The position numbers and the translations under genes were made by a program. A DNA stretch of 63,290 nt, filler included, from Hausera hauseri (taxonomy: Eukaryota): assembly GCA_046269625.1 (NCBI GenBank). It is 12 parts of 12 records of this genome, joined end to end, with 100 filler letters (N's around TTAATTAATTAA, not from the genome) between each part and the next. Parts side by side here need not be neighbours in the genome. Positions count along the whole stretch, not along the records: positions 12,100 to 16,138 come from JBJURY010802422.1; positions 16,239 to 21,147 come from JBJURY010394145.1; 10 more parts are not named here. One strand, given 5' to 3'. The notes under the pieces were generated by a model that ran no database searches, had not been told where the DNA came from, and saw only the letters and a program-made list of their open reading frames with translations. Positions 1-61,439 of this stretch are shown one piece after another. Positions within the stretch are counted from its first letter, which is position 1. Every line of letters starts with the position of its first letter.

Positions 1-423
1 CGAAAACCAATCAATCGATTGAAATTCTAACTGCACATTCAGAGACAACAGAAAGTGCACTACCGATTGCACCCGGTCCCGCACCCTATTGATCCATTTT
101 TAAAATCTCGAAAAGCCAATATTATTGATTTTTGCACACTTGCACATGCGCTGCACACTTGCAGTGTGCACCAATCGATGCACCTTGATGTGCTCTATCG
201 ATTAGCACAAAGTGCTAATCGATTCGATCAATAGTGCACTGTGCAGCGATCGATAAGTGAAAAGTGCAAAAGTGCCCTTAGCAACGGTGCCTGGCGGCAC
301 CGTTGCTAGGCACTTTATGTATCGATAGTGCACAATGTGCACTATCAATCGGCACATGTGCAAAATCGATTTATCGATTATCTCCCCCCCGTGGTGGCGC
401 ACAAAGTCCATTTTCCCCCTACT
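1..423 (-). repeat. Dispersed hairpin-rich repeat 'A' (probable Polinton-type TIR; terminus AGTAG at 423)
   Basis: Perfect stems at 197-223, 279-308 and 324-346. Related copies at 12100-12620, 13603-13815, 13869-14482, 16953-17180 and 63159-63290. Reverse strand begins AGTAGGGGGAAAATGG. Confidence 0.75.
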
Positions 424-3400: not shown

Positions 3401-5750
3401 TCCTTTGTCTTTATGTATATGCTGCCTTCTGTCCATATGCATCCTTTTCTACTTGCGTCTGTACTGCCTTTTGCTAGACTACATCTTTTTCCTTTTGTGC
3501 CTGTACTGCCTACTGATCATGTGCATCCTTTCCCCTTTGTGCCTGTACTGCATTCTGAAAAACTGCTTCCTTTTCTGTAAGTGTCTTTGCTGCCTTCTGT
3601 CCATCTGCATCTTTTTCAGTTTGTGTCTGTACTGCATTCTGACAATTTGCATCCTTTATTTTGTGTCTGTATTGCATTCTGATAATCTGCATCCTTTCTG
3701 TTTATATATGTACCGCCTTCTGACAATCTGCATACTTTTCTATTTGTGTCCGTACTACCGTCTGACAATCTTCATCCTTTCTGTTTTTGTATGTGCTGCC
3801 TTCTGACTATCTGCGTACTTTTCAGTTTGTGTCTGTGCTAATTATGACAATATGCATTCTTTCTTTTTGTGTCTGTACTGCATTATGAACATCTGCAACC
3901 TACCCTTTGTGTATATACTGCCTTCTGACAATCTGCATCCTTTCCGTTTATAAATGTATTGCCTTCATTCTGCTGCATCCTTTTTAGTTTGTGTCTGTAC
4001 TCTCTTCTGACCATCTGCATCTTCTTCTGTTTCTGTCCGTACTGCTTTCTGACCATCTGCATCCTTTTCAGTTTGTGTCTGTACTGCCTTCTGGCCATAT
4101 GCGTCCTGTTCTATTTGTGGCTGTGCTACATTCTGGCAATCTTCGTCCTTTGTGTTTTTGTATGTACTGCTTTCTGATAATCTGCGTCCTTTTTAGTTTG
4201 TGTCTGTACGGCATTCTGACTATCTGCATCTTTTTTCTTTTCTGTCTTTACTGCCTTCTGACAATCTTCATCCTTTCTGTTTATATCTGTACTGCCGTCT
4301 GACCATCTGCATCCTTTTCAATTTGTGTCTGTGAAGCATTCTGAACATATGCATTCTTTTCAGTTTGTGTCTATACTGCATTCCGTTCATTTTCATCTTT
4401 TCTGTTTGTGTCTGTACTATATTCTGACAATCTTCATCCTTTCTGTTTTTGTATGTACTGCCTTCTGACCATCTGAATCCTTTTCTATATGTGTTTGTAT
4501 TACCTTCTGACAATCTGCATCATTTCTCTTTGTGTATTTACTGCCTTCTAACTATCTGTATCCTTTTCAGTTTGTGTCTGTACTGCATTCTGACAATCTG
4601 CATACTTTGCTTTTGTGTCTGTACTGCATCCTGGCAATCTTCGTCCTTTCTGTTTGTGTCTGTACTGCCTCCTGACAATCTGCATCTTTTTCTCTTTGTG
4701 TCTATACTGCGTTCCTACCATCTGCTTACGTTTGTGTATTTACTGCATTCTTTTAACCTTGTGACAAATGGAAATTTGATATAAGATTTTGCCTCATTTG
4801 CCCTACTAACTTCCTCTTTTCTTCCCTCAAATTCACTATAATCATACCCTGTTCATCCTTTTCTCTTTGTGTCTGTACGGCCTTCTGATGATCTGCATTT
4901 TTTCTGTTTATATTTACACTGTCTTCTGACAATCTGCATTCTTCCTCTTTGTGTCCGTGCTGCCTTCTGACCATCTGCATCCTTTTCAGTTTGTGTCTGT
5001 ACTGCATTCTGGCAATCTTCGTCCTTTCTGTTTGTTTCTGTACTGCCTTCTGATCATCTGCATCTTTTTATGTTTGTGTCTTTTCTCCCTTCTTGCAATC
5101 TGCATCCTTTCTGTTTTTGTATGTACTCCCTTCTGGCCATCTGCATCCTTTTCGATTTGTGTCTGTTCTACCTTCTGACAATCTGCATCCTTTTTTGTGT
5201 GTGTACTGCATTCTGACAATCTGCGTCCTCTTCTGTTTGTGTCCGTGCTGCCTTTGACCATATGAATCCTTTTCCGTTCTTGCCTGTACTGCATTATGGC
5301 AATCTGCGTCCTTTCTTTTTGTGTATGTACTGCATTGTGACAATCTGCATCATTTTCCGTTTGTTTCTGTACTGCCTTTTAACAATCTGTATCCTTTCTG
5401 TTTATATCTGTACTGCATTCTGACAATCTGCATCCTCTTTTGTTTGTGTCCGTACTGCCTTCTGACCATATGCATCCTTTTCCGTTCGTGTCTGTACTGC
5501 ATTATGGCAATCTGCGTCCTTTCTTTTTGTGTATGTACTGCATTGTAACAATCTGCATCTTTTTCCTTTTGTATCTGTACTGCCTTTTTATACTCTTTAT
5601 CATTCTGTCTGTGTATATGCTGCCTTCTGGCAATCTGCATCCTTTCTCTTTATATCTGTACTGCCTTCTGACCACTGCATCCTTTTTAATTTGTGTTTGT
5701 ACAGTTTTTTGTCCATCTGCCTCCTTTTATGTATCTGCTGCCTTCTTTTG
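424..5750 (-). repeat. Tandem array of ~42-bp units (~125 copies; some 41-bp units)
   Basis: Approximate consensus TGACAATCTGCATCCTTTTCTCTTTGTGTCTGTACTGCCTTC. The ORF track shows 14-aa periodicity. One minus frame reads DADCQKAVQTQREK. Confidence 0.95.
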
Positions 5751-6071
5751 ACCTTGTGACAAATGGGAATTTGGTATGAGATTCTGCCTCATTTGCACTA
5801 CTAACTTCCTCTTTTTTTCCCTCAAATTCACTATTATCATACCCTGTTCTTGATCTTTTCCCCTTAACGCATCCACCTGCCGCATTATCTGTTACATTTC
5901 CTTCTCTTTTATTTCACTAATCGCTCTTGCACCTTTCTGCCTCTCTTTTATCTGCACCTCAAAAAGATTTTTAAAATTTACGTGCAACCTGCCTTCTCTA
6001 ACGTCATCCATTTTTATCGACTCTATACTTTCATTGGGATCAGTTTCTTCCTCAAACGGATACAGCGCCAT
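424..6071 (-). pseudogene. Decayed gene: charged/coiled-coil N-terminus followed by 14-aa KAVQTQ repeats
   Basis: From the ATG at 6071: MALYPFEEETDPNESIESIKMDDVREGRLHVNFKNLFEVQIKERQKGARAISEIKEKEM*QIMRQVDALRGKDQEQGMIIVNLREKKRKLV..SQGQKKAADT*KEADGQKTVQTQIKKDA. This runs in frame into the array. Confidence 0.6.
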
Positions 6072-9948: not shown

Positions 9949-11893
9949 ATGATTAAACTAATAACGCGTATGATGTTAATAAGACAACTCGGTGCGATTA
10001 CGGTATATGATTGAGATAAGTTTATAATAGGTCAAAAATATTTCCTAATGGATCTGGAACTATGCGAATACGCCAGACCTCATAAGGTAGTAACCATCGA
10101 AAAAAATATTTCTTGTATCAGCAACGCGAACTAATCGCAATAGATGGAACAGAGTGCATGCTACGATGATCGCGAAGTATTTTCCATTGAGGAAATATTC
10201 ACGGACATTCATCGATGGTAAAACCAACAACATCATTAATCCCTATGGACTTAGATCGACAACAATGCAAACAAGCCAAGGAAACCGGAAGATGGAGATG
10301 GGACGGGATGTAGTTAGAAGCCCAACCTGGAAAAATAATTCGGGTATACAAAGTGGCAGTGGGTAGATTGGATTTGCATACAAAATACTGTAACGGGGGT
10401 GAATATGACACGGGGAAAGGAAAAGAAGGAGGAATAGTATTCGATTTCTACAAGACAAAAATGAGAAACAAAAAGGTAATGTTCCATAGTGTTACGAAAA
10501 CCTATACCGAAAACCAGAAGTGTCACATTCAAAATAGTGACTGTCCCTTCAGGAACTCAATAATTATTTGGATTCCACCACCCTTAAATGACTACAACTT
10601 TATCAGAATAAAAGAAATAAATTTTAATGAAACCACGAGAAAAAGATATGTGGACACAACTGACAGTAATGCCGGGTCAACGAAGGACGTGGCCGAGCAA
10701 CCCACCCCCACAATGCTAATATCCGAGGACCACGGGTTAAAATTTATTAAAAACAAAATGCTTTCGCGATGTAATGTAGTGATGTGTGCCAGCAATTATG
10801 ATGCATTCTTTATAACAGAAGCTGCAATAACTACTTTCGCTCTAGAAACACAAGACGTAAGAATAGAAGAATGTTTAAAGAATAAAGACGATTATTGTTA
10901 ATGCAAAGGGCAAATTGGATTAGCGGAAATATATTACAAAGTGATTGCGAATGAATGTAAATTGGATATAGAAATCATGTGGACCAAACTGGCCTTAACC
11001 TACGCAAATCTGGAACTAGCATCATCCGTTATTCCAATGAAAGAAGGTGTTTTCGGAAGAGTCACTGGGGAAGTCCAGTTAACTTATGAATGCGAAAAAC
11101 GGGACGTATCTATAAACATAGAAGAAAAACGTTGTATGCAAGAATTGCCGGACCTATACCAGAACGTACCTCAATTGGCTATGCCACTTACGAGAATCTT
11201 ATTGGAAAACTCAACGCGCCGAACGATCTTAAAAGAATGTAAAGCCGGTTTAGGGCAGCCTGTGTTTAGGAGAGGTGAAACAGACTGTATGAGTCTACCG
11301 AATGGAGGGATAACCGCTGAGCCCAGCAAATTAACTGGGACAAACTTGCTAAAGGGTATAACGGACGACAAGTTCACCAACACCTCAAGTAAAGGGATTT
11401 GCAAGCCAAAGGAAATTGAGGCTTTTAGGCATTTCCTAGCTTTTCCACGACAACGTACACATGAATTAAACAGAGCCATGTCGACGGTAGTGGATGACAC
11501 TTGTTATCAGGCAAAATGGGAATCCCCACTTGGCGTTAATCATTATCAAAGATTTGATACAGAAATTTTCGGACAAGCTGCATCTGGATTGTTGGCTATC
11601 TACTTTTTAGTGCAACTGATAAATGTCACAATTTAGTCCGTTATTAATGGCTATGAAATATTTACCCTAACTGGATTTTCATGTAAAATCTTAACCACAA
11701 TTAAAACATCCTTTGGAAAATTTTTAAAAGCTTATGAAAAGAATAAATGGAAAAGCGACGCTGAGAGGCATTCTGGTTATTACAATCGTAAACGGAAGAG
11801 AAATATAAAACTACGAAGGAACGATTCAGATGATGATGTACCTAAGGGAGGAGACAGATTCTCCAAGATACACAACCATAAGTCACACACGAC
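9949..11893 (+). pseudogene. Chuvirus-type (Jingchuvirales G / Anakin env-like, class III gB-like) glycoprotein, decayed
   Basis: Hydrophobic leader plus ITVYD* (YDC motif). GVFGRVTGEV..YEC..V..RCMQELP..Y....MPLTRIL..C. C-terminal FGQAASGLLAIYFLVQLINVTI*SVINGYEIFTLTGFS resembles the TM/GY..GWS region I recall for this family. Contains stops and frameshifts. Confidence 0.8.
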
Positions 11894-11999
11894 TGTGAGG
11901 ATATAATTGATAACAGAAGTTTTGAATTTAAATCAGATACAATTTTAAATTTAAATTAAGATTATAATTTGGAGTAATGTAAAAAATTTAATTAAAATT
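11894..11999 (+). mobile_element. Start of an LTR of the same Gypsy family as 38182-38348
   Basis: TGTGAGGATATAAT..; 49 of the first 59 nt match the reverse complement of 38290-38348. No PPT immediately upstream. Confidence 0.75.
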
Positions 12000-12899
12000 N
12001 NNNNNNNNNNNNNNNNNNNNNNNNNNNNNNNNNNNNNNNNNNNTTAATTAATTAANNNNNNNNNNNNNNNNNNNNNNNNNNNNNNNNNNNNNNNNNNNNC
12101 TGTGCACTACCGATCGGCAGTGTGCTAGGCGACGGTGCTGCCAGGCACCGTTGCTATGCACATTTTTGCACATTTCACAAATCGATCGCTGTACATTGCA
12201 CAATTGATCGAATCGATCGGGACAAATTGCACAATTAGTGCACAATTCAGGTGTGCTGCACATGTGCAATTGTGCAAAAATTAATAATATCGGTTTTTCG
12301 ATATTCCCACTATTGATGATTTGCACCCGACACGGGTGCACACATGATGCACTGTGTGAATGTGCAGTTAGAATTTAAATATATTTATTGGTTTTCGAAT
12401 AAATGCCAACCGAGGCAGACTTCCCATAGGTATTTCCGTTATAAAATGAAAATCAAGAATATCAATATGGCACATATACTGGCGGGTACAGTACTTGATG
12501 TACTATCGTTCAGTGAAATACTCGACTAAGTGTGCTCTTGATTCGGTTGCTAAGGCACTTTTTCACTTGTTACATATTTGTCACTGCGGCGTATGATTGA
12601 TGGAATCGATTGGGGTCAATGGGTGATTTTCAGGTAATTTATGGCTTACATAAGTTATGTGGGCACGGTAGGTAAAAATACATGTAATATATAGGCAAAG
12701 CATGGGTTACATAAGCAGGAATATATCAGGATTATAATGAATAGGGATGGAATATATTGAGGGAATATACCAAAATAATAAGGACTAGTGAGGCAATATA
12801 TCAGTAATATGGGGAATACATAGAGGGAATATACCAAGATAATGAGGATTAGTGAGAGAATATACCGCCCAAGGATGGCTTTTGTAGCCAGCTATCGGA

Positions 12900-13260
12900 C
12901 TGTGATATCAGTAATGAAGACTACCAACATGTTCAGAACATCTGACATGCATTCCAATGCAGGACAATAGGGGAATAAAACAATATTTACCTCAAGACGG
13001 ACGTGCTGACAGATATCTTTGAGAGATTCAGGGATGTTACAATGAAGAGCCATGCTTTGGATCTAGCTCACTTCTTTACGGCTCCAGGGATGATTTGGAC
13101 AGCTATGCTGAGATATACCGTCGTAAGGCTGCAGATCATTAACGATTACGACATGATCCTTATGATCAAGAGAGGCATTAGAGGTGGAATATGCCAGGCC
13201 ATTCATCGGTATAGCGAGACCAACAACAAATATATGGCCCAGTATGATCCATCCAAGGAC
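12900..13260 (+). pseudogene. Protein-primed DNA polymerase B fragment (Polinton)
   Basis: YLKTDVLTDIFERFR..LDLAHFFTAPGMIWTAML..IKRGIRGGICQAIHRYSETNNKYM. Confidence 0.85.
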
Positions 13261-13420
13261 CTTTTTGTTGGCAATTGAATAGTTTTGATGATCCCTCGGA
13301 TAGTCAGAAGTATCCATGTGTTTCCCCAATTGGGCAAAAATCCTCATAAATGTCCTCAATATGGATCTGAGAGATGAAACTATCTATATCTATATAGTAC
13401 ATTTTTATGGAATCATTTTT
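13252..13420 (-). pseudogene. Inverted pPolB C-terminal fragment
   Basis: MYYIDIDSF (YxDTDS motif) and MDTSDYPRDHQNYSIANKKVLG. Confidence 0.8.
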
Positions 13421-14815
13421 ATGTATAAGGGGGTACTCATATATGAGAAATCGATTGTCATTGTTAGATTTTTCGAATAGTTCGAACTTCGGTATTCGAG
13501 CTCGTAAATATTCGAATTTCAATTATCTGACTTGCGATTCGAGATCGCCATATTCGACTTCCTATCGGTCCCCGCTAATTATAATATCGAATTTTCAGTG
13601 CTAGGGGCAAATAAAACCTCTGGGAAGTCTGCATCAGTTGCACTTTGGATCGATATTATTCGAAAACTAATCGATAAATTTAAATTCTAACTGCACATTC
13701 ATATACTGCTCCATGTTTGTGTTCAAATGCACCCTGTCACATGTCCTAATCATCAATATTGAAAATATTGGAAAACCGATATTATTGATTTTTGCACACT
13801 TGCACATGTGTTTTTGCACTGTACAGTATATATTAAGGTACTTCTCGATGCGCTCTACCTATCTGCACTTGATCCCAATGGATTCCATCAATCCTCCGCT
13901 GCACAGTGATAAATATGTGAAAAGTAAAAAGTGCCTTAGCAACCGTATCCAAGAGCACACTTGAATCGAGTATTGCACTGAACGATAGTACATCAAGTAC
14001 TGCACCCGCCCGTATATGTGCCATATTGATATAATTGATTTTCATTTCATAGCGGAAAGTCCTATGGGAAGTCTACCTCAATTGGCAATTATTCAAAAAC
14101 CAATCAATATATTTCAATCCTAACTGCACATTCACACAGTGCATCATATGTGCATTCGATTGCAGTCGGTGCCGGGTGCTAATCATCAATAATGGAATTA
14201 TCGGAAATACGACATTATTGATTTTTGCACACTTGCACATGTGCAACACACCTGCACTGTGCACCAATCGATGTGGACTGATGTGCACTATCGATTAGCA
14301 CTTTGTCCCGATCGATTCGATCAATTGCGCAATATGCAGCTATCGATTTGTCAAATGTGCACTGACGCCTAGCACACTGCCGATCGATGGTGCACCATGT
14401 GCACTATCGATTGGCACAAGCGCAAAATTGATTTATGGATTTTTCCACCCGGTGGTGAGACAGACTTCCCATTTTTACACTAGATGAACCTATGTGAATA
14501 TTTTAATTCGTATAATGTCTTTCGGTTTTCTGGAAAGCGCTCATTACGTTCATAAAATTTCATCAATATCTAACCTACACAACCAAAGTTGTAGAGTACA
14601 GCATTTGAAAACAGAAGAGTTTATTTCACTTTGAATTGACGTTTTATTAGGATTTAGATATTTAAAAATTCACAGCACCTATATGGCACATATTTTGAAC
14701 ATAAAAGTCATATCAGGAGATAGAAAATTAAATTTTCTATAAGATAGCGATTGAAAATTTTAAATATTACATTTTTAACAAAGTTTTTATTGATGGAAAA
14801 TATGTTTGTTCCATT

Positions 14816-15030
14816 AGTAAGGGGATGTGAGCACACGGGACTAATATAAATTTCCTATCTCGGAGACTCCCCAGGATTGGTAATCAATATTCAATAATCA
14901 ATATTCAATACATTATGTGGCCGCTGTTGGGTTTCACTATTCCCACCCCCTAGTACAAAGCATTCTGGCCGCTGTTGGGTTTCACTATTCCCACCCTTTT
15001 GCTTAAATTTTGCAAAGTTGATATAAATAC
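14816..15030 (+). mobile_element. Possible LTR fragment (PPT + TGT start, internal 31-bp direct repeat)
   Basis: AGTAAGGGGA|TGTGAG at 14826. TGGCCGCTGTTGGGTTTCACTATTCCCACCC occurs at 14918 and 14966. TATAAAT at ~15022. Confidence 0.35.
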
Positions 15031-15615
15031 CCATGTGTAAGTGTCACTTGTGAAAATGTCTCTGTGGTTTCAAGGACATGTGTAGTAATTTTATTAGAAA
15101 AAAATCCAAATCATATATTACGTGTCCAGAAAAATTTTAATTTCATGTAGTTCTTGGATAAACACCATAGATGTAAAGGGTAACTATGACATCTTCAGTT
15201 CTATCAAAAAAAAATTGACATCATATCATATGGATGATGTTTTTATCTCATTGTAAGAGCCACAGATTCCAGCAAACAAAAATAGTCGGAACTGATCATA
15301 AATTGAACGCTGCTTAGCAATTCATTGGAGACTACACTAAATCACAACCCTCTCAGCCAGTTGGAGAGAGCGAACTGCATAATCTGTGTTTAAAGACTAA
15401 CAGCTATTAGTCTTACTGGGAAATGGGATTTTAGATTAAAACTCAGCCCTGGAGAAAACAATCTGTACTTGATTTGTTTAAGCTCCTGAAGTCATAAAAA
15501 ATGTGTCTGTGGCCTCTCTTACTCATGCTCCTTAAAGTCAGTTTCTGTGTTTATCTTTTGTTCCACTCACAGAAGAAGCGGTGACAGAATCTTTTCTTGA
15601 TTTCGTCTTACACAC

Positions 15616-16047
15616 CTGAGCGTCAAGGATCCGGACGCTGTAGAAGAGCCAGTAGGAGACGACAAGGAGAAACACCAGCACGGCCAGGAGGACCTGGAAC
15701 ACAAAGACGCGCGGGAGTCCGGCCCGCGGCGGCCTGAAGAAGAGCGCCCAAACGGCGAGCAGCAGGATGAGCAGCTTGAAGGCCACGGAGATGAAGAGGC
15801 CCTCGCAGGCCGTCCCGCAGCTCTGCAGCTTCTCCGGCCACAGGATGCGTGGCAGTGTGAGGAAGGCCAGCGGCGTGAGGAACACCAGCAGGCCCAGGAT
15901 CACAGCGATGGTCCGGGCGAAGTATCGGCGGCAGTCGAGCCCCACGCTGTCCTCCAGGTCCTTAGTGATGCGTACGATGTCCTCCTGAGAGAGGCTGTGC
16001 TCCGACGTGCCGGTGATGGCCGTGGTGGTCTCGCCCCAGTTGTCATC
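15616..16047 (-). CDS. vangl1: Internal exon of vertebrate (teleost-like) Van Gogh-like protein 1
   Basis: [67 protein letters not shown]. ttcttccag acceptor at 16048, GT donor at 15615, 432 nt with phase 0/0, strongly GC-rich codons. Confidence 0.9.
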
Positions 16048-16952
16048 CTGGAAGAAACCAGAACAGATGATTCAGCCATGAAGCTTGTCCACAGGTTAAC
16101 TTTGATAAAGAGCATTCTGGTGTTTGAGACCAGTGATGNNNNNNNNNNNNNNNNNNNNNNNNNNNNNNNNNNNNNNNNNNNNTTAATTAATTAANNNNNN
16201 NNNNNNNNNNNNNNNNNNNNNNNNNNNNNNNNNNNNNNACCACAATGAAGTTGCATTAGAAAGACATATCGCAATAAAGTTGGAACAGAAAGAAATATTG
16301 CAATAAAGTTGGAACAGAATCAAATATCACGATAAATCTTAAGATGACTTAAAAAACTTTTTTCAAATGAGTTTTATTTTGTACAAAACAGAAAAATCAA
16401 ACGTATGATTCCAGACATAATTTGCTGTACAGTATTCAGGGAAGAAAATCTGAAGGCTGAATTGGCTTGCAAATCGTCCGCATATGGATCTTCTTGCAAC
16501 AATGAGAGAATGGAATCTAAATCATGTAAATTAATAACAATAAAAGACACATTAGCAAAAACTGACTTCAAACACTGCCAGATTTAAACGCAAGTTTAAA
16601 AGAAGAGATTAGAAATGACTATTTAATCATATTTCAGTTCACTACAGCATGTATTACACTTTTCAAAGACTCATAAGTGACAGAGTAACACAAGAAGGAA
16701 AATTAGTTGATTGTGCCAGTGATGACTAGTGACAAAACATAAGTATCAAACAGTTGAGATGGACCTGGTACTTGTTTTAACAAATAAAAAAACGTTGAAT
16801 CTTGTGCCAGGATGGTGGATTACGTCCACAGAGATCTTGAAATACGTAGATTTCGTTTAGTTGATATCTTAGAATTTCACAATCTTAGTTTACGTATGCG
16901 TGTTTCATCACGTCCACTGGAACACTTAAAGATAATAATAATATGTACATTC

Positions 16953-17180
16953 AGTAGTGTAGAAATGGCGGTTCAGTCCCATTTCGGGAAGGGAGTAATC
17001 GATAAATCGATTTTGCACATGTGCCGATCTATAGTGCACCCGGAGCACTATCGATCCATAAAGTGCTAGGCAACGGTTCCGTTTGGCACCGTTGCTAGGG
17101 GCACTTTTGCATATTTCACAAATCGATCGCTGCACAGTGCAGTATTGATCGAATCGATCGGGATAAAGTGCTAATCGATA
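16953..17180 (+). repeat. Repeat A terminal fragment
   Basis: Begins AGTAGTGTAGAAATGGCGG and carries the same hairpins as 1-423. Confidence 0.8.
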
Positions 17181-17600
17181 GAGCGACTCCATAACTGCGA
17201 TAGAAGCGTTCTCCGTGCTCATCGCTGATTTCGCCGAAATTGTCAGGAAAAGTCGACATGCGAATCGAGGAAATGTGTTTTGAGGGACATGTTAGTCCAT
17301 AATTCTGTATGAATCTACGCACTGTTTAATATTACGAACATAGTCGATAGATTTGTGATTTCCCAGAAAATTATCGACGACTGATTTGAATGCCATCCAT
17401 GCACGAAGTTCGCTACCGTGTAACAGATTTTCGAATTATTTGTCTGCAATAATTTTCCTAATCTGAGGTCATACAAAGATACCTTCCTTTATATTTGCAT
17501 CACTAACTTGTGGAAATCGTTGTCGAAAACTTTTGTTGTATCTAGCGCTTTTACGCAATTCTTTATGAGCCGAAACTATAATGTGGTAATATAATGTTCT
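17181..17600 (-). mobile_element. Chapaev3-like transposase relic
   Basis: RFPQVSDANIKEGIFV*PQIRK..AWMAFKSVVDNFLGNHK..FPDNFGEISDEHGERF. Confidence 0.7.
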
Positions 17601-19129: not shown

Positions 19130-20950
19130 GACCTCAACAAGGCTCTCAGATGGCGCAAGACAAAATCCCGAATGGTGGCGCCGTCGAGATGAGGCTGACG
19201 CGCCCGATTGTGTCCGGCCGAAAATAGGCCAGGGTTCCTCAGCACACGAAGAACACCACATCACCTCCCATAGCAAAGTGTAAACTGTGATGGGTAAAAC
19301 AGATGTAAAACAAAAACGCCAAAAAAGAAAAGTGTGTTTTTAGTTAGTCTTGGTGTGGACTAGACGTTGAATGCCTTCTACTGATTTCCAGTGCTATAAG
19401 TGCTAAATGTCTCTCTTCGTGCTTTATTTGTGTGCCTTGTGATTGATTGCAGCGTTGTGCGTTGTGGTAGAAGGTCTGCTGAATATCTGGGCTCATTGTT
19501 TAATGTTATTTATGTTGATGAGAGTGAAGATTGCGAAGAAAGATTAATTGAATGCGAACCAGAAAGGAAAGATAAGGTAGGCTTGTGAGATTAAATATTT
19601 GATGAGGACTAATGATCGATTCATAGTGAGGTGGAGAAGAATCAAGAGACTAAGGGTTTGATGATGGCTGAAAAAAGGAATCAAGAAAAATTATTATGAG
19701 GTGAAACAAGATCGTCCAGTTTGTCATGGATAAACAATGTCGGTTTAACGTTGGTGATATGTACAGAGCATTCTTTACCATTTTTGAGCATTGTGGTGGA
19801 TAGGATGTTTCGCTATCCAAGTAAAATATAAGGTAAAAAGTTTGTCTAGTGTGGCTTGGATTGTGCTAGTACTTTAAGGGAGTTTTCAGTAGCCCATTCG
19901 ACTGGAAGTGATAAAGTGTTATGTGGATATGCTTGATACTTAGTAAATTTACGAGTGATTTAAATAGATTCAAATCAAATTGGGGGCCCTGGTTCGAAAT
20001 TAAATGCCCAGATGAGCCGTATCTGCTGGGCCAGGTGCGTATAACCATATCAGCAATGATTTCAGTGTTGGTGGAATGGAATGGAACAGCTTCTGCCCAT
20101 CTAGAAGCACAGTCCATTATAGTAATGATAAACTGATGGCCACCGTCTAATGGTAGTGGATCAACTATGTCAATGCGGATTATGTCAAAGGGAAAATGAT
20201 AGAGAGGCGAATTGAGGTGTTTTCTGCTACTTTAAGCTTTTGACATGCCGTACACTCCCTAACTCAAGCCTGCACGTCCAATCTTATTGATGGCCATGTG
20301 GCGTGGAGTTTAAGAAGACGATAAGTATCTTTGGATCTTGGGTGATGCAATGAATGAATTCTGTTGAATGCATTTTTGCAAAGTAGGAGATAAAATGATT
20401 TTAGTGAATTCGGCACTGGAGGTGTCCAAAGCTATGTCATCAATAATTTTATAAGATTTGAAGTGGAGAGAATAGAGTCATCTGGCTGGTTCCGTCTGAG
20501 TAACTCGTTGTCAAAAATGTGTGCAAACATAATCGAGCCGGTGGAAGGCGATTAAAAATCAGCCACTATATTATCAACCCCTAAAATGTGTTTCATATCA
20601 AAAGCTAACATTGACAAGTATGAAATCTGTTTCTCGTGATGTGTAAACGGGGGTTTCTTAGTAAGAATGTGAAGTAAGGGCTTATGGTCCGTTTGTGTGG
20701 TAAATGTACGTGAAAGCAGAAGGCGTTTAAAGTGCTTTATTGCTATGACCATAACAAGTAACTCCCTATCGAAAGGGAAATAACGTTATTAGGTCTTTGT
20801 GAATTTTCGTGCGAAAATTTCCTGAGGTTGATGAGATCCGTCCTTGAAATGATGGAATACTGCGCCTGCTGTTGTAGTGGATGCGTCTGTTTTTAGAAAA
20901 ATTTCCGAGTATGGCTCAGGATATGCAAGAATTTCCACAAATTTTAGACA
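19130..20950 (-). mobile_element. Gypsy LTR retrotransposon relic (RNase H, integrase, PPT, start of 3' LTR)
   Basis: LKTDAS..FDRELL..AIKHF..TDHKPL and DCASRWAEAVP..SNQGPQF..HFQSNGL. GGGAGGTGA|TGT at 19260. The LTR's far end is uncertain. Confidence 0.8.
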
Positions 20951-21741
20951 ATTAATCATAACAAATAGTATCCGCTGTGTCGTTGAAGAATCGCAGTATT
21001 GAATACTGAATGATTCATAAATGAGATACTATGAGCTACATCTTAGTAGCAACGTTTTAAATTGTAAGTTCAACAATTTCATAAATGTATCAAATGGTAC
21101 AATAACCGAAATCAAATTAACACATCAAACGCAAATAGTGCGGTACCNNNNNNNNNNNNNNNNNNNNNNNNNNNNNNNNNNNNNNNNNNNNTTAATTAAT
21201 TAANNNNNNNNNNNNNNNNNNNNNNNNNNNNNNNNNNNNNNNNNNNNAGGTGCCAATGTCGAATTCTGTATGGAGTCTTGATAAGGAATTGCAGACTTTA
21301 CAAATCTCTCTCAACTTTCGACCGTCACTCAATATTCAATGACAGTAATATTTATGAAAGAATTATTAGGTTAACAGATGTCATTGATCATGGCATGACA
21401 TAGTCCAGATCCTCTCTCGCTTCACTTAGGAACAAAAATGTGTGAAACAAGGATGTGTTGCTACATTTGTTGGGCACTTACAAGAGTCGTTCAAGGCTTA
21501 CTGACTAACGCTAGAAAGATTAAATTTGTGGTGCATGTAACCTTGTTGAGTAAAAATGGTCATGTATAACGTCTTCAGCAACAATGGCAGCGAGCTGTAT
21601 CTCTATACATTGCCTAAAATTATTATCTCCCTTCGATAATGGAACTAACAAAACATCAGGAATGCAAGCATTGTGTATTAATCCATTCATACGTGAGTGT
21701 GTTTATGCCAGTATCAGGCTCATACTAATTTGTAACCAATA

Positions 21742-23162
21742 AGTAATGAGTTATGCAGAGTTAGGTTAGTATTTCAGATGTTAACAAACGAATAAAAAGG
21801 ATTAATTCACGCGCAAGATGGCGGCGGGGTCACGTAACGGGTACCTGGGTAGATAAGGGGATTACCTGGGAGATAAGTGGGCGATAATTGTAGTTGATAG
21901 ATACTGTGTTATATAATGTTAGGTTTGATAGGTGTCTGTAGTTGTGTATTGTTACGTAAGTAAGCGTACCCATGCAGGAGGCGTGATCGGTAAGGGGGAG
22001 ACAATTTTATAAAATTTTATTATTATTAGATTTTTATGTAATATGGTGATTTATGTTGTTGGTTGGGTACTGTTTTTTTTTCTTCTTGATGTTGTAATGG
22101 TGAGCTAGTTTGCTACCTGGGTAGATAAGAGGGATTAATTTAGGCGCAAGATGTCGCATGAATGAAAAGGGAAAGACAATTTAGAGGTGGAATGACTTAC
22201 ATAAGATTTAATTCAGGCGTGTATAGACAAAGAGGATTTAATTCAGGCGCAAGATGGCGGCTGAAGGGTAAGGAGAGACAATTTTGAGGTGGAACGACTT
22301 TTATATAAGACTTAATTTTGGCGTGTATAGACAAAGAGGATATAATTCAGGCACAAGATGGCGTCTGAAGGGTAAAGGGGAGATAAGTGTGAGGTTAGAG
22401 GTTTTTATATAATGATAATTCAGGCGCAAGATGGGGTCTGAATTTAAGGGAGATAAGTTTGAGGTGTAGAGGCTTGATATAAGATTTAATTCGGGTGCAA
22501 TATGGCATCGCGTCTGAAGGATACTGGAGTAGATAAGGGGAGTTCATTTTGGATATCAGGGTGAGCATAATTGCCTTGTAGATAAGTGCTCTGAGTACGG
22601 ACACCAAACATGATAAGAGATAGCAAAATACAGTGTAGTTCGACTGGCGTGTCATGGTGGTTATTCCTTGTAACTGTATACTTTTATAACATACACACAT
22701 ACACGCATACTTAAATACAACAAAATGCCGATTTATTTACAGTGTGTTTTATTTACGTTAAAACCTTTTTGAGTTTAAGCTTTCTGCGTAGTTTCTTTAT
22801 TGGTCTCTGTACAGGTTTGACTCCCATTGTTGCATCATCATCATCGTGCATTGGGACGTGTAACTGTTCATTTGATGTTCTGTGCGCTGACTGATCAATG
22901 ACGATACAAAGTTCTGTAAATAACCGTTAGTTGGGCTTTGTGCAGACTCGTCATACACTGATGAAAAGGTCTGCATATGATTGCTTTGCGTGGCTGTCTT
23001 GTCATAAAATGGTAAAAAGTTATGTAATGGCTCAGTGTCAATGAACGACATAAGTTTTGTCAGAGGCTCGGTTTGCATGGCCACGTCTGTTATTGCGTAT
23101 TGTTCTAGAACGTCTTTTGGAACTGTTATGTAGTTGATGACAGATAAAATGTCACTCTGCAC
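21742..23162 (+). repeat. Left TIR (~1.4 kb) with subterminal repeats
   Basis: Reverse complement of 29186-30919. Repeated ATTCAGGCGCAAGATGGCG units. Confidence 0.9.
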
Positions 23163-23372
23163 GGCAACGAGTAGTTCAATCTCTTCACGAGTTAATGAAT
23201 TTACTGTTTTCGTTGGGAACTTTTTGTAGCTTTCACCAAAGTATCTTCAAATATGCACCAACACTTTCTTTCGATACGAGGAAACTATAACTAACTTGGC
23301 TGGACCTATCGGTTTTGCCAACACAGCATCCCCAGTTATGTAGACACTGTTATCAAACCGTGTAAACATCAT
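22797..23372 (-). pseudogene. PC4/Sub1-like ssDNA-binding domain protein
   Basis: IGPAKLVIVSSYRKKVLVHI*RYFGESYKKFPTKTVNSLTREEIELL resembles the PC4 pattern V.V..F.GK..IDIR.Y....P..KGISL..EQ. One in-frame TGA. Confidence 0.65.
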
Positions 23373-23399
23373 GAAAACAGAAAGATCCTCTAGGTGTGT

Positions 23400-23917
23400 G
23401 TGATTTGCTTATATACCGTTATAACCAGGATAACCTGGATGTATGTTGTCATAGCTATTTATACAAGTCTGGTTTCTCCGCAACCAAATGATTCTATCGT
23501 TGACGTGTTGTCTCATAGACATAAAGGACATGAGAACACATCGCATGTAGCCCCTCTGGATTTAATGAGGATGAAATAAATGACATAGAGTCCACAATCA
23601 TTACTAAAAAGGCCTTGTAAGGGACGTGCATTATAGACGAATTCTCCATCAGAGTTACACTTAATAAAATCATCAATGTCAGTGTGGAGTGGTGGAAGTC
23701 CAAATAAATCCAAATAGTGAAATGTGCCAATGCCGTCATAGTACAAGGCTACCCAGTGTGTACTGTGTAGGTTTCTGGAATCTCTATTTATGACAAAGGC
23801 TGCCGGTTTTGTTGGATTGATGCGTTTGAATAAAATGTCATGGGGCACAACTCTGATGGGATGTCGGTGGACGAAAATGTCAGAGTGTAAAATTGTTAGT
23901 ATTTGTTCAGTGTTCAT
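23400..23917 (-). pseudogene. Adenain-like cysteine protease (Polinton PRO)
   Basis: VINRD..STHWVALY..YLDLFG..PLQGLFSNDCGLYVIYF (His/Asp/Gln/Cys catalytic pattern). Confidence 0.88.
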
Positions 23918-23922
23918 CTTTT

Positions 23923-25209
23923 CTAGGCAGGGTAATCCATTAACACTTGTCTGGTTTTGGAAATTTCAAATATAGAGTCTTGTTCCGCATACACAATGAC
24001 TTGTAAGGGATGGGGTGTCATGGAGGAAAATTTAAACTTCAGTGAAAGAGGTCTATTTTTCACAAGTTCAAACTGGTCCTCACCCAAACGACTGGGACTT
24101 AATACCAACGCGGAAAGAGCGTAACCATTTTTAAAATGTCTATAGTTGACTTTGCAGCCGGCATCCTTACTGATCAGACCCATGGCTAGATTGGTTCTGA
24201 AAAAGGCTCGGGCATAATGGTCGCACTTGAAATCCACATGGCCGTTCGCCCATCGACGGTGACGTTCAAGTACATCAAACCAAAAAGTTGAAAGTTGAAC
24301 GGATTATTTCTGTAGGTGCCATTACAAGCCGAGGAATTTACTATTCCAACCATGATGCGAGTGGGCGTTTGACTGCGGAAAAAATTGTCTCGAATTTGCA
24401 ACAACATTCCTTTGGGTATGGACAATGTCTTTATCATGACTCGTTTGATGGAATATTTTGCGGTCGAAGTAGTCAAGGTCTTTTCGTGGGCCAGAGGAAT
24501 GGCCGGATTTAATTAGGCTTTCCTGACAACAGGATGCCAAAAGTGATAACTGATTTATAACCGAACAAGGGATCATCTGATATGAAGTTGAACGCGTCTT
24601 TAGAAGGGGTGAGTTTGATCTTCACGTGCACTCCGTTCAGTATGTAATGGTCATGGCTAAAAATGTTGCAGTGTAACTTTCCCATCATATCCACTTCTCA
24701 ACTACTGCCGGCCAACTCCTGACGCGTTTTTAGTCCGACGTTAGAATCGCCTTTAGCTTCATCAAAATAATTTGGCATGTCGTTGTAAAATAGTGCCGCT
24801 GTCAGTTTACCCCTCTTCGCTTCCTGACAGTAATTTAAAGTGGCTTAGAGGTAATATCTGTAAGGGTACGTGTTTTCACTTGGCATGATTAACGCGTCGT
24901 TCAGGGTGACGTCCACTTGTGAAAATAAACTGTATGTAATTATTGACTGGGGCCACTTCTGCACCATCTGGTAAATTATCACCATTGGCCAAAGTGACTT
25001 TGGCCCGCATGTGCAGAAAGGTATTAAACAAATCTAGATACTCTTTGCAGCTTCCAGATATAAATTCTATGGGCGCCACGGGTGTGAGATAAGTGAGAGT
25101 GAATTTCCACAAACTGACCTTCCTCTATCGCCGTTTGTGTTGGAGGAATACTAAACAAATCCAAACCAGAATGGAAGCATTTACACGAACTGGGGTGAAT
25201 CAAAGCCAT
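23923..25209 (-). pseudogene. Polinton major capsid protein (double jelly roll), frameshifted
   Basis: SGLDLFSIPPTQTAIEEG, YLDLFNTFLH, GKLHCNIFSHDHYILNGV, NPFNFQ, VIVYAEQDSIFEISKTRQVLMDY. Confidence 0.88.
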
Positions 25210-25229
25210 GTCTTTAATCAAAATATCAG

Positions 25230-25688
25230 CATACTTCCTTCCTCACCGTTTCTTGGACTAGTTGTGAGAACTACTTGCGGTCACTGTCGGTTTTATTCTT
25301 CTACTAAATGGTTTGTTGGGCGGTGTGGCTTTTCTTTTATGATGCATGCCATCAACCATTTGGTTCCCCACAACATGATTCACTGCACCTTGCAACAGTC
25401 TCTGTCCGGCCACTTTGGCTCGATCTCTAAATGATTCACCAACGTTTTGACCAGTTAACGCTTCCTGGGCCACTTGCAAACTCGTTCTAATCCCTTCCCT
25501 GATATAGCTTTGCCTCCAGGCTTTAACCACCGGAAGATCATTCGACCCAATCTGCTAAAGAAACTATCAATGCCTCTTCCACGTTGACTTCTGCCGACGA
25601 CAAAAACGGGAATTCCGTCTCCGGCTTGACTACGGTAAAAGTCTTCATAAACCTCGGTGCTTCGATGTAAAAGAGTGTGTCTGACCAT
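25230..25688 (-). pseudogene. Small basic Polinton core/virion protein
   Basis: YEDFYRSQAGDG..QRGRGIDSFFSRLGRMIF (xGxG followed by an amphipathic helix). Lies immediately upstream of MCP. Confidence 0.65.
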
Positions 25689-25691
25689 CTT

Positions 25692-26440
25692 TTATTGCAA
25701 ATCAGAATGTCTCCTAGGTCGAAAATGTAACATCACCACCGAAGAGCCGTTTATAAATGGGATCTTTTGTCCCAGGTCGTTGGTTAAAAGTATTTCCATG
25801 GTGTGAAAGGAAAATCGACTCAGTGGCAGGTAGTGGGGTTTGTCGTAAATCCGAAACACAGAGGTCAAATTTCTATCCAAAACAGGCACAATGGGTAACA
25901 AAAACACCATGACATCTCTGACGGGTCTCGCTGCAATGATATCGCAGTACACGTAAACGTTTCTTATGTTGCTTGTCAAGATTCAACTGTGCTTTACCTA
26001 TTGAAGCGAGTCCTTGTCTGTTATATGGTTTTTGATAGTCCCAATATATTTTTCAACTTTTCGCTAATGATAATGTCCGCACTCGACTCGAATCTTTCCA
26101 GTCCGGTGGTTTTCTGTGTTTTATGGTAATGGATTTTCAACGGCACCAATTTGGCTCCTTTCACGCGTGAAATTAATTCAACAAAGGATTGGCTGGCGAC
26201 TTGTAGAGTTCAGGACTTATTCGTAACTTAAAACGATGGCTTAGTGCTGTTTATGTGCGGAAGGTAATGTAACCACACTTCATTCTCTAGAACGTTAAAG
26301 TAACTGTTTGGGAATTAAATCTCCATCAAAACGACCTCGTAATTAAAAGTTTATTCTGTGGTTTGTGGGAGTTTCACGTAAAAGTTATCCGGAAACGTTT
26401 TCATGAAGGCGTTGCTCGGCAGCATCATGTAAAAACTCAT
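25692..26440 (-). pseudogene. Putative Polinton minor capsid (penton) protein
   Basis: MSFYMMLPSNA..FPDNFYVKLP N-terminus; VYVYCDII..LLPIVP..PHYLPL..EILLTNDLGQKIPF..MLHFR C-terminus. Confidence 0.7.
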
Positions 26441-26699
26441 ACTCACATTCAGATCTGCAGATTAGGTAATATATAACCCAAACAAGTGGAGAGCAGAACG
26501 ACCCATAACTTATTGTCGTCGTTACCATAAGAAGGTTGAATAGCAACATGGAGATGATGATATATATAACCAACAACTGTGAGATGAAAACACCTCTACG
26601 CGTGAATCAGTTTATCAAACCAAAATCAGGAAATGGGCCTCTCTCTTCGCTTAGTTTCCGCATTTTGTTCTTGCTCGGGCATGCTAGTCTTTATATCTC

Positions 26700-27712
26700 A
26701 AAATGTGTTTTCCCAAAATCTGACTGTTGAATGACGAATTATAACCAAACCATTTCACTAAATATTCTTAACTGCCCGCCGTTCACCTTTCTCACATAAT
26801 GTTTTCTGTTCTGTAAACTACATTCTCTCTGACTTTCTGGAGCTCTTCTTTGTAAAACAAGCCTCACAGTTCCTCGCCGGCGTCGTCTTTGAGCACATAA
26901 GTTATTTGACTTGTCCCATTTACTTTGCTGATGGTAAACAATTCTTCCGTCCAAGCTGGAGTGTAGCCTTTTTAAAAGGTTGTCTGTTATGTCCAACTCA
27001 GACATGGTCCCCTTCCGTAAATGCTTTTCTGCCGACGGCGTCAGAGGCTGAATACAAATTGTTCCACACTTCTTCTTGATTGTCAAAATTAACTTGCACT
27101 GGGGCCATGCAAATGCTTCTATGATAAGAAGGGTTGTAATTTAGAATCAAATCGTCTATCACGTCTACGTTTTGGTAAAGTATCACCACATTTTTTCTTT
27201 TAAGGTTTGGTTAAAATGCTCCACGACAGCCACCTTAACGTCTTCATTTTCCATAGTGAAGAAATGCACGCCTTGGTCTTTGAGAAACTTGAGGAATGTT
27301 TTGTTGAGAAATTCGCTTCCTTTTCAGTTTGTAACGCAATAGGCTACAGTCAGACAAAAATTTTGCTCATGGCCTCCACCAGCTCCTTGCCGGTTTTCTT
27401 CTTTATGGGAAAAACCCAAGCATATTTACCAAACACATCTATAAACGTCACTAGATACGACAACCTGTAGTTGTATGTTTTTAATGCGTGCATGTATATC
27501 AGATCAGGCTGAAGCTGGTGACCGATGCCGCTCATTATTATGGGTCGCAAAGTAAATTTGTGACAAACGGGTTTTAAGAGTATAATCAACTTGGTGACTT
27601 AACCATTCATTAACTTTCTTAGCCTCGATTTTTGTAGTGTGATGTAATGCCACAACACCAGAAAAAGCACCCGAATGCTACGGGTCATATTAATGTTTTC
27701 GTAAAATCTCAT
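26700..27712 (-). pseudogene. Retroviral-like integrase (Polinton c-INT), possibly with C-terminal chromodomain
   Basis: HQLQPDLIYM..YLVTFIDVFGKYAWVFPIKKKTG and LILNYNPSYHRSICMAP. Confidence 0.88.
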
Positions 27713-28222
27713 TTATTTTGTGGACCATGTTTCCCAATTGGGCTTGTTTTTTTCTTTATGCCGTTTCTCAGGTTATGAAACACGGATATTCTTGATCTCC
27801 TTTTAGTAGAGGAGGGCGGTGTTTGCGATATTTTAGTAACAAGTATCGGCGATTGAGGTCTTTTGGTACTGGTCATTGACGCTTGAGGCATTTTAGTAAC
27901 GGTCATCAGGGATTGCAGAATTATATGCGAGACTTCGTCTTTAAGTACAGTCAGCGAGATGTCATTGATGGTTGGGGAAAGCAGCGTTGTTTCCTTGATG
28001 TCCACTACCCCTAGAGATTTGTGCCTGTGCTGTTCTAGTCTAGTCAAATAACGCTGCAACGTTTGTTGATACAATCTGGCTTTGTCTCGTGGCGATAAAT
28101 CGTCTCTTTCCAAAATTCGTTGTATTTCATAATCCGTATCGGAAATTGTCGCTCGTGGCGTCGGGTGGAACGTATTGCTTTTGGTTCATAGTCTCTAAAA
28201 ACCGCGGGTCCATCAAAATCAT
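27709..28222 (-). pseudogene. Conserved Polinton hypothetical protein
   Basis: DYEIQRILERDDLSPRDKARLYQQTLQRYL motif; positioned between the small virion gene and INT. Confidence 0.55.
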
Positions 28223-28231
28223 TCTCCTGTT

Positions 28232-28511
28232 TTAAAAACCCAACACGCCTTTCACCATTTTCAGTATAGGATCCAATAAAGCTCCTAGGAAACCTCCTTG
28301 TTGGAGAATCTGTTTACGTTTTTTGATCAACGGGTTCTTTTTGGTTAGTTTGCGCAGACCCGTTTTGTAACGACGCAAACGACTCTTCTGATCCTGAATG
28401 AGGGGAATGTAACCTTTTTACACATTGTAGCAACACTCGCACAGCGCTCGCATGAGATTCGGGGACGCCGATTTCATTACAGCCTTTATGTCGGGTAAGC
28501 GTGGAGTGCAT
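28232..28511 (-). pseudogene. Small Polinton protein with basic stretch and QGGFLGALL tail
   Basis: CECCYNV*KGYIPL..QKSRLRRYK..KKRKQILQQGGFLGALLDPIL; possible adenain xGG cleavage site. Confidence 0.6.
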
Positions 28512-29118
28512 TTTGGGATGTACACGATGTGTCTCTCATGAAGTAATATAGCGCTACATTACCTTAAATTGTAGGGTGTTTCCTAACGAAAATCGAGTAA
28601 CAAATAACCTTGAGGTTTCGATGTCGTAACCTTAAAATTGTCTTGTACATATGAACTACAACCTGGGTACATCTGATTGGCCAAGTTGATAATCTGTGAA
28701 GCATCTTTGGGTTTTTTAAAATGAGGTAATGGGAATTTAAGCTTGTGATACGGTGTTCCTTATTTATTCCAAAAAGGTTTTTGATAATGTACACGATGCT
28801 GAGATTCCGGTGATGACTTCCCTTTGTAAAAAGTTTGGTTACTCGGTCGTCAGTTTCGGTCATCAGGTCGTCGATGACCACTAACCGTCTCTTGTCTCCT
28901 TACCATTGTTCCACGTCTGGAAGACATTCAATAAATTGCACGTCTGTCATCTTTTCGTACACTGATTGCCACTCCTCATGACACCATATAATCTCCTCCA
29001 TCACGGGACGACCATGTCTGGAAGATGCGCTAAAAACTCACGCACAAAAATGGTTTTTAGTGCTGCCGATCGGTCCCACTATAAGGACAGTAATAGGATG
29101 TTTCCACCCATGATCCAT
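28510..29118 (-). pseudogene. A32-like packaging ATPase (Polinton)
   Basis: HPITVLIVGPIGS.KT (decayed Walker A); LVVIDDLM (Walker B); LFTKGSHHRNLSIVYI; ITSLNSHY. Confidence 0.9.
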
Positions 29119-29185
29119 ATTCTATACTGTTGTGTTCCTATGCCCCTTATAAATATATATTTCAAAGAAAAGACCGGGTCGGATA

Positions 29186-38163: not shown

Positions 38164-38181
38164 TGAAAAGTTAACACCAAT

Positions 38182-38348
38182 TGTTGAAAATTTTATCATA
38201 ATCCAAACTACTTATTTGGCAACAAATTTTCCAAAATTATAAATTTTAATTGTACTTTTAATATTAAACTTTTAAATTAAATTTTTTGAAAATTTAAAAG
38301 TGTTTCTAATTTAAATTTAGAATTTCCATTCTCGATTATATCCTCACA
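38182..38348 (-). repeat. Single 167-bp LTR with upstream PPT and downstream PBS-like site
   Basis: AAAAAGGGGGA|TGTGAG...TTCAACA|ATTGGTGTTAAC on the minus strand. Confidence 0.75.
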
Positions 38349-48672: not shown

Positions 48673-48709
48673 TTCAATTTTGCAGATGTCATTTATTTAT
48701 CAGTCAATC

Positions 48710-54790: not shown

Positions 54791-54947
54791 AGACTTTCTT
54801 GGGAATGGTTCACCAACTATTGGGGCTATCATTTTTTAATCTTGCACNNNNNNNNNNNNNNNNNNNNNNNNNNNNNNNNNNNNNNNNNNNNTTAATTAAT
54901 TAANNNNNNNNNNNNNNNNNNNNNNNNNNNNNNNNNNNNNNNNNNNN

Positions 54948-61141: not shown

Positions 61142-61439
61142 GTTATCTTGTTCTTTCTAAACGGATTAAGGTCGAAAGACGAGTGAATATCAAAATAGTT
61201 GACATGTATAATTCTTTATTCTCGAAGAATCTATGGTATGGTATGTTCCCAAGTGTTAGTAACGAATGGACCATTTGGTATATGGTATATAACCGGAGTT
61301 TTATCATCACACAGATGAAATATCAGTTCAGCTATATTATTGTCAGGATCCTTTTTGAAGATATCGGTGAAACCTTTTTACAATATATTCAATATTTGTT
61401 GACACGTTGTCATTCTCCCATTTTGTAGTTAGTGGGACG

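What the first reader, a model, noticed from the sequence alone, without database searches (positions are those of the whole stretch)
15030..16138. Vertebrate (fish-like) vangl1 genomic fragment joined to invertebrate repeats: host DNA transfer or chimera
Seen: a GC-rich exon with intact splice sites and intron flanks, on a contig whose other part carries repeat A (found on 3 other contigs) and pPolB relics, with an LTR-like piece near the apparent junction. Residues I recall as conserved in Vangl are altered by transitions: FVFRALL>FVFQVLL (CGG>CAG, GCC>GTC) and FYGVR>FYSVR (TACGGC>TACAGC). Two of these are at CpGs. Inference: this could be decaying host DNA integrated in a fish-associated parasite. 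Contamination plus misassembly is the null hypothesis.
Basis: partly seen in the sequence, partly recalled or inferred. Interest (0 to 1): 0.7.

Follow-up and report, generated by a model that had tools for sequence, protein, structure and literature searches.

The report
Killifish DNA stuck on invertebrate contig
A one-kilobase piece of an annual killifish's vangl1 gene, whose exon spells exactly the normal fish protein, sits at the end of a repeat-rich contig from a likely invertebrate; it is likely stray fish DNA joined on by a library or assembly error, although a very recent real insertion is not ruled out.

Summary
The fish exon is real; the decay is not. Window 16047-15616 (minus strand, 144 codons, AG/GT intact) is 144 of 144 residues identical to annotated Vangl1 of the killifish Nematolebias whitei. 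The fish part starts at about 15150-15180, not 15030: one public run holds 12100-15149 as repeats, mostly very high-copy; two others hold only 15180-15442, with different flanks. The fish DNA runs to the contig end, so no second junction is seen, and no listed contig bridges the one junction. Best reading (0.66): fish DNA in the sample plus a chimeric join, which standard screening would miss. A very recent true insertion stays open (0.27): in the repeat-holding run the fish piece has depth 4.7 against 5.6 on the other side, and the scan earlier noted a second fish fragment, inside a retroelement, on other DNA of this genome (unchecked). Raw reads of the source were not available, so the join is untested.

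The parts
12100..15149 (.). Non-fish, repeat-rich part of the contig
   Evidence: Run X1 lays 55,275 contigs on 12100-15750, nearly all here; summed depth per bin 307 to 868,742; runs X2 and X3 have no cover here. CpG o/e 0.85.
12167..12619 (-). Repeat A, left copy (inverted to the right copy)
   Evidence: 81% to 13869-14361; related copies at 1-396, 16997-17184, 63168-63260
12979..13275 (+). Relic of a protein-primed B-family polymerase
   Evidence: 22 of 71 identical, E=2e-11, to window 33580-34074, which hits PF03175 at E=1.2e-4, below the cut-off
13869..14361 (+). Repeat A, right copy
14800..15149 (.).
   Evidence: Summed depth 11,081, 57,793 and 50,169 in X1 bins 14784-15149 with variable tandem joints, 0 in the next bin; perfect 31-nt direct repeat 14918-14948 / 14966-14996
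15150..15179 (.). Junction zone: at least 30 nt assigned to neither side
   Evidence: No cover by X1, X2, X3 or X9; X2 and X3 diverge from the window before 15180
15180..15442 (.). 263-nt non-coding piece, inferred fish; in two other runs not adjacent to the exon-proximal intron
   Evidence: X2: 3 other letters and 1 gap; X3: 4 other letters; one contig each (5073 and 6231 nt, depth 20.3 and 26.3), which go on unlike the window on both sides with the same 30 flanking letters in both runs. CpG o/e 0.37.
15443..15615 (-). Start of the intron downstream of the exon (GT donor at 15615-15614)
   Evidence: X1 holds 15490-15720 in one contig with 0 differences, depth 4.7
15616..16047 (-). vangl1 coding exon, 144 codons, phase 0 at both ends, intact
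   Evidence: 144 of 144 residues equal N. whitei XP_037552239.1; 139 of 144 Austrofundulus; 136 of 144 Kryptolebias
16048..16138 (-). End of the upstream intron with pyrimidine tract and AG; runs to the contig end
   Evidence: contig ends at 16138
16139..16238 (.). 100-nt spacer (N runs around a 12-nt linker) that separates contigs; the DNA beyond it is not linked
   Evidence: The same spacer occurs 11 times in the window

Best explanation
An intact piece of the vangl1 gene of a South American annual killifish (Nematolebias whitei or a relative with the same exon protein) lies at the end of a contig of non-fish repeats, and it is likely fish DNA that was in the sequenced sample and was joined to the repeat by an artefact. 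Shown: fish identity, no amino-acid change, retained intron ends, a junction zone at 15150-15180 beside a very high-copy repeat, and a run-off at the contig end. Inferred: the fish DNA came from host tissue or gut contents, or from carry-over in a laboratory. Inferred: a chimeric molecule (ligation or amplification) or a thinly supported path in a low-depth assembly graph joined it to the repeat. Inferred: it stayed because screening does not cut same-kingdom chimeras this short. As it stands it cannot make Vangl1: it is one internal exon, without start codon, promoter or the other exons.
For: (1) No decay: 144 of 144 residues equal a living fish's annotated protein; 0 of 144 residues were private against 119 of 120 homologues, which bounds neutral change at about 1.2-1.4%. 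(2) The fish DNA runs to the contig end; there is no return junction. (3) The junction abuts a repeat of summed depth about 50,000 in X1, and no listed X1 contig covers 15150-15489. [quoted passage not shown] (5) PMC13155389 (passages): earlier vertebrate-to-schistosome transfer claims were contested or refuted, several as contamination. (6) Lead only, unchecked: a likely fish Penelope element elsewhere in this assembly (e1-9192219) would fit fish DNA in the library.
Against: (1) In X1 the fish piece (231 nt, 0 differences, depth 4.7) is at about the depth of an exact non-fish piece of the same contig (283 nt, 0 differences, depth 5.6). Trace contamination would not give this; the fish would need to be at about single-copy depth, or locally amplified. 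(2) The hole over the junction is weak evidence: X1 also lacks this contig's own letter at 3 of the 6 most copy-specific places that I picked from 37 listed rows, and the tool warns that holes prove nothing. (3) None of the other 11 contigs in the window looks like fish: CpG o/e 0.83-1.25 in 10 of 11, and the 11th is a satellite that carries repeat A; cleaning could also explain that. (4) A second break at 15442/15443 and a 30-nt unassigned stretch are more than one stray short read explains, unless that break is a deletion in the donor fish. (5) Lead only, unchecked: a second fish fragment noted inside a retroelement of this genome (e1-9164541).
Confidence: 0.66

Rival explanations
1. Real and very recent insertion: a fragment of killifish genomic DNA, perhaps a two-piece patchwork with a short filler, was captured at a chromosome break beside a repeat in the invertebrate germ line. 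It would be function-less passenger DNA, too young to have decayed. Capture as DNA during break repair is likelier than LTR retroposition, because both intron ends are kept.
For: Similar depth on both sides in X1 (4.7 and 5.6, both 0 differences). Break at 15442/15443 against two other runs, and at least 30 unassigned nt at the junction. 0 of 11 other contigs fish-like. Unchecked notes report a second fish fragment inside a retroelement and many stitched gene fragments in this genome; one such mosaic lies in this window (Ig, DRC7 and LTN1 pieces within 2.5 kb).
Against: No bridging contig listed and no second junction. No change from a living fish's protein. X1 may be the source sample and so is not independent. 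The published record for such claims is poor.
Confidence: 0.27
2. Old transfer now decaying in the parasite.
For: Q118 was shared by only 1 of 119 homologues in the first search.
Against: That one is the rivulid Austrofundulus, and Nematolebias has all 144 residues. 37 CpG remain in the exon. The chance of 0 private residues is 0.006-0.014 at 2% neutral change. Neighbouring relics are broken, and repeat A copies are only 69-83% alike over their longer matches.
Confidence: 0.02
3. No mixing at all: the organism is a killifish and 12100-15149 is its own repeat DNA inside a vangl1 intron.
For: The segment 14800-15149 is also CpG-poor (o/e 0.44 on 5 CpG). I could not name the organism.
Against: X2 and X3, which hold the inferred fish piece at 98-99%, have no cover on 12100-15179 at 85%. 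CpG o/e is near 1 in the other contigs. The window's Ig fragment is at most 33% identical to the best 150 listed hits in 1.84 billion proteins, and its LTN1-side ORF found nothing, unlike fish genes.
Confidence: 0.02

Closest known systems
Vangl1 of Nematolebias whitei, XP_037552239.1 (Strabismus family, PF06638)
   Same: 144 of 144 residues over the exon, FQVLL and FYSVR included.
   Different: Only one exon and about 260-530 nt of flanking non-coding DNA are present. DNA identity to N. whitei was not measured, so the donor species is open.
Host DNA in parasite assemblies and contig-end chimeras (FCS-GX paper, PMC10898089; passages)
   Same: Unchanged fish sequence at a contig end, under the 10-kb limit for reporting same-kingdom chimeras.
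   Different: The depth in one run is near that of the flanking DNA, and the piece has an internal break; the artefact is not shown directly.
Vertebrate-to-flatworm transfer claims: salmonid, mouse and other sequences in schistosomes (as reviewed in PMC13155389; passages); Xenopus 5S rDNA in Protopolystoma (PMC12294053; abstract and section 3.3)
   Same: Vertebrate-like DNA in an invertebrate assembly, with contamination as the main rival.
   Different: Most of the listed cases concern transposons, rDNA or expressed sequences; this is a single-copy developmental gene with intron ends. The schistosome claims were contested or refuted; the 5S paper argues for transfer. That the organism here is a flatworm comes from unchecked notes only.
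LTR-mediated retrocopies (Tan et al. 2016, PMC5131818; passages)
   Same: A gene fragment fused to a repeat; some junctions there carry 2-26 extra bases.
   Different: There the cargo is the organism's own mRNA, flanked by LTR-element sequence on both sides. Here it is foreign, keeps intron ends, and has a repeat of unproven class on one side only.

Membership tests
vangl1 orthologue (Strabismus, PF06638) | Strabismus domain above the curated cut-off | tested here: met
   238 bits against cut-off 25
vangl1 orthologue (Strabismus, PF06638) | Closest to vangl1 of rivulid killifish | tested here: met
   Identical to Nematolebias; with Austrofundulus 98/91 in a 17-row tree; 99/91 in a 28-row tree without Nematolebias. 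No vangl2 row was in either tree.
vangl1 orthologue (Strabismus, PF06638) | Exon ends match the fish gene structure | tested here: inconclusive
   AG and GT present. 2 of 120 fish proteins (P0091, P0102) leave the family sequence just after the last codon, as an intron there would cause. No spliced read or fish genomic sequence was seen.
Decaying pseudogene | Stops, frameshifts, broken splice sites or private amino-acid changes | tested here: not met
   None; 144 of 144 identical to an annotated protein
Decaying pseudogene | dN/dS near 1 against the donor allele | not testable with these tools
   No donor DNA for the exon; there is no amino-acid difference from N. whitei
Integrated horizontally transferred DNA | Recipient DNA on both sides | tested here: inconclusive
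   One side only; the contig ends inside the fish intron
Integrated horizontally transferred DNA | Junction spanned by independent molecules | tested here: inconclusive
   No listed contig of X1 bridges it, but only contigs were available and holes are common
Integrated horizontally transferred DNA | Depth equals recipient single-copy depth while the rest of the donor genome is absent | tested here: inconclusive
   4.7 against 5.6 in X1; genome-wide fish depth in X1 not measured
Integrated horizontally transferred DNA | Present in other individuals or sister species | tested here: inconclusive
LTR-mediated retrocopy | Cargo copied from spliced mRNA (introns lost) | tested here: not met
   Both intron ends retained
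LTR-mediated retrocopy | LTR-element sequence on both sides, with microsimilarity at the joints | tested here: inconclusive
   A repeat on one side only, not shown to be an LTR; its normal continuation is unknown
Contaminant chimera | Foreign part near-identical to a living species and at a contig end | tested here: met
Contaminant chimera | Junction unsupported in raw reads; donor genome present throughout the library | not testable with these tools
   No raw reads of the source run; no whole genome held

The most novel reading that the evidence does not exclude
This invertebrate, a fish-associated flatworm if the earlier notes are right, repeatedly builds scraps of its fish hosts' single-copy genomic DNA, introns included, into its germ line beside or inside its own repeats; the vangl1 piece (rivulid) and the GART piece noted elsewhere (livebearer) would be a record of different hosts.
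Probability: 0.2. Interest if true: 0.78.

Novelty: not a real feature. Interest (0 to 1): 0.22.

Why it matters
If an artefact, it is a practical warning: short fish pieces survive at contig ends in this assembly, and residues that look decayed against remembered consensus can be ordinary lineage states. It also points to an annual killifish as host, prey or laboratory neighbour of the sample. If real, it would be a vertebrate single-copy gene fragment caught just after entering an invertebrate genome, a class of event whose earlier reports in schistosomes were contested or refuted (PMC13155389, passages), and such pieces would record host use. One read-mapping test decides it.

Tried and rejected
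Decay by CpG transitions: rejected. Start at 15030: rejected. Naming the invertebrate: failed. Word-seeded searches with the ORFs at 60620-61156 and 61966-62754 found nothing; the HMMER search gave only 23-33% hits without names; the Atlas could not take the sequence; no whole genome is held. Exact-pattern scans of metagenome contigs for the junction repeat and for the 263-nt piece: 0 matches each. Rfam on 12100-16138: 0 matches. Earlier-findings look-ups near the window, by sequence and in relatives: nothing. Hi-C ligation as the cause: a CTNAG site lies at 15442, but no GATC, GANTC, CTNAG or TTAA site lies at 15150-15180, and the left piece does not end in a site; treated as chance. Placing the junction by composition: not possible, both sides are CpG-poor; no RNA holder listed. 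X9 (RNA by guess) laid 0 contigs, which the tool says can be false. The upstream two thirds of the exon and the upstream intron (beyond 15750) were not compared with any run, so DNA identity there is open. Six literature searches (listings only, open-access library) showed no title or abstract opening that reports a single-copy fish gene fragment with introns integrated in a parasite; subscription papers are not covered. No supplements were read.

Full report
Layout. The window is 12 separate contigs joined by 11 identical 100-nt spacers. The finding is the right end of the contig 12100-16138. Nothing beyond 16138 is linked to it. No whole genome is held.

The exon. On the minus strand 16047-15616 is a 432-nt open frame with a pyrimidine tract and AG before it and GT after it. 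GC is 0.64, GC3 0.90, with 37 CpG. It hits Strabismus PF06638 at 238 bits. A search of longer proteins gave 618 hits at E<=1e-20, 120 listed, led by Austrofundulus limnaeus Vangl1 (97%) and Kryptolebias marmoratus (94%). The cluster of the Austrofundulus protein has a second member, Nematolebias whitei XP_037552239.1, and the exon equals it at 144 of 144 residues. Trees of the 144 columns put it inside Rivulidae: with Austrofundulus 99/91 in 28 rows that I picked, and identical to Nematolebias in 17 rows. The donor is N. whitei or a relative with the same exon protein; DNA identity was not measured. The donor splice site has indirect support: 2 of 120 fish proteins leave the family sequence right after the last codon.

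No decay. Among the 120 homologues FYSVR occurs in 11, FRVLL or FRILL in 12 and FQVLL in 1, Austrofundulus; Nematolebias has both motifs. Against 119 of the 120 (one lacked the anchor motif) no residue was private. 780 of 1296 possible single-base changes would give a stop or an unseen residue, so neutral change since leaving selection is under about 1.2-1.4% at 95%.

Where the fish DNA begins. 24 runs hold part of 13900-16138, none half of its words; the best shares are 0.36, 0.24 and 0.24 (names coded). Contigs of 4 of the 24 were laid on 12100-15750 at 85% likeness. X1 lays 55,275 contigs and covers 12100-15149 as repeats, with summed depth 307-868,742 per bin; it is the window's organism or a near relative (inferred). 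Its cover stops by 15149, so the stretch from 15030 is largely repeat. X2 and X3 cover only 15180-15442, each with one contig (5073 and 6231 nt, depth 20.3 and 26.3, 4 differences each counting a gap). Both contigs go on unlike the window on both sides, with the same flanking letters, for 1954 nt before and 2857 or 4014 nt after. That piece can give at most 0.105 of the words, yet they hold 0.24, so they must also hold exon-side sequence that was not shown; if all 0.24 lie in 15180-16138 the identity is about 98% (estimate). I infer that X2 and X3 are close relatives of the donor fish. The fish part is then 15180-16138, with at least 30 unassigned bases before it and a break at 15442/15443. 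The break is either a deletion of at least 2.9-4.0 kb in the donor's intron or a second join.

Is the join physical? Not shown. In X1 one contig covers 15490-15720 with 0 differences at depth 4.7, and one covers 14407-14689 with 0 differences at depth 5.6; no contig covers 15150-15489. The similar depth fits insertion, and it fits abundant or amplified fish DNA equally. The hole fits an artefact, but X1 is patchy: of the 10 lowest-residual places that I picked from 37 listed rows, the contig's own letter had depth 0, 0, 0, 7.3, 8.3, 12.0 and then 68-99. The tool warns that contig depth is flat, that holes prove nothing, and that the best holder may be the source sample. No second junction exists to test, because the contig ends in the fish intron.

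The other side is not fish. CpG o/e is 0.83-1.25 in 10 of the 11 other contigs; the 11th is a satellite carrying repeat A. X2 and X3 hold none of 12100-15179. An Ig-domain ORF has at most 33% identity among the best 150 hits. I could not name the organism. Earlier scan notes call it a probable flatworm; that is unchecked. The repeat at the junction has tandem sub-repeats; I found no second copy in the window and nothing that marks it as an LTR.

Context from the scan (leads, not support). In this genome one note reports a 376-nt livebearer GART piece with introns inside a retroelement, and another a likely fish Penelope element. The first favours real capture, or repeated chimerism; the second favours fish DNA in the library. 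Two fish families would fit a parasite of several hosts, pooled specimens or laboratory carry-over.

Literature. [quoted passage not shown] PMC13155389 (passages): salmonid, mouse and other vertebrate-to-schistosome claims were contested or refuted. PMC12294053 (abstract and section 3.3) argues for 5S rDNA transfer from Xenopus to Protopolystoma after contamination tests. PMC11660948 (passages): amplification can make up to 1 chimera per 10 kb; whether this sample was amplified is unknown. PMC5131818 (passages): LTR retrocopies are mRNA-derived and flanked by element sequence, which does not match an exon with intron ends.

Verdict. Shown: an intact rivulid vangl1 exon with flanks at the end of a non-fish contig. 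Refuted: decay. Inferred, 0.66: stray fish DNA with an artefactual join. Open, 0.27: a very recent insertion by capture at a DNA break, without function. Interest 0.22; it would be about 0.78 if repeated real capture were shown by spanning reads.

Noticed in passing
window 60265-62754 (- strand): Broken, apparently intron-less pieces of three unrelated genes in 2.5 kb: Ig I-set (61966-62754, E=3.7e-15), DRC7 MORN (61346-61579, E=4.9e-9) and LTN1 HEAT (60265-60600, E=2.6e-4, below cut-off). It resembles the stitched retrocopies noted elsewhere in this genome.
   Followed up: partly
window 10902-11903 (+ strand): Broken relic of a Monjiviricetes-type fusion glycoprotein (PF24664, E=1.7e-11 and 0.0096), after several kb of broken ORFs without Pfam hits.
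   Followed up: no
window 21742-30919: Long inverted arms near both ends of a 10-kb contig (75-89% complementary) around a weak integrase hit (27353-27598, E=0.0048) and an ORF at 23516-23965 that looks like a Polinton protease (recalled; no Pfam hit). Probably a decayed Polinton-like element.
   Followed up: no
window 32938-34074: Endonuclease VII (E=1.4e-7) and pPolB (E=1.2e-4) relics in series.
   Followed up: no
window 47464-48696 (- strand): Open 411-aa frame that looks like a Polinton-type major capsid protein (recalled; no Pfam hit).
   Followed up: no
window 36433-39907 and 19869-21028: LTR-retroelement relics: protease, zinc knuckle, RNase H and integrase hits.
   Followed up: no
window 12167-14361: Two inverted copies of repeat A (81%) enclose the pPolB relic; repeat A reaches summed depth 868,742 in X1, so it is a major repeat family of this genome.
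   Followed up: partly
window 413-5860, 45344-46147, 51832-54799: Satellite arrays with units of about 41-42, 56 and 160-170 nt.
   Followed up: no
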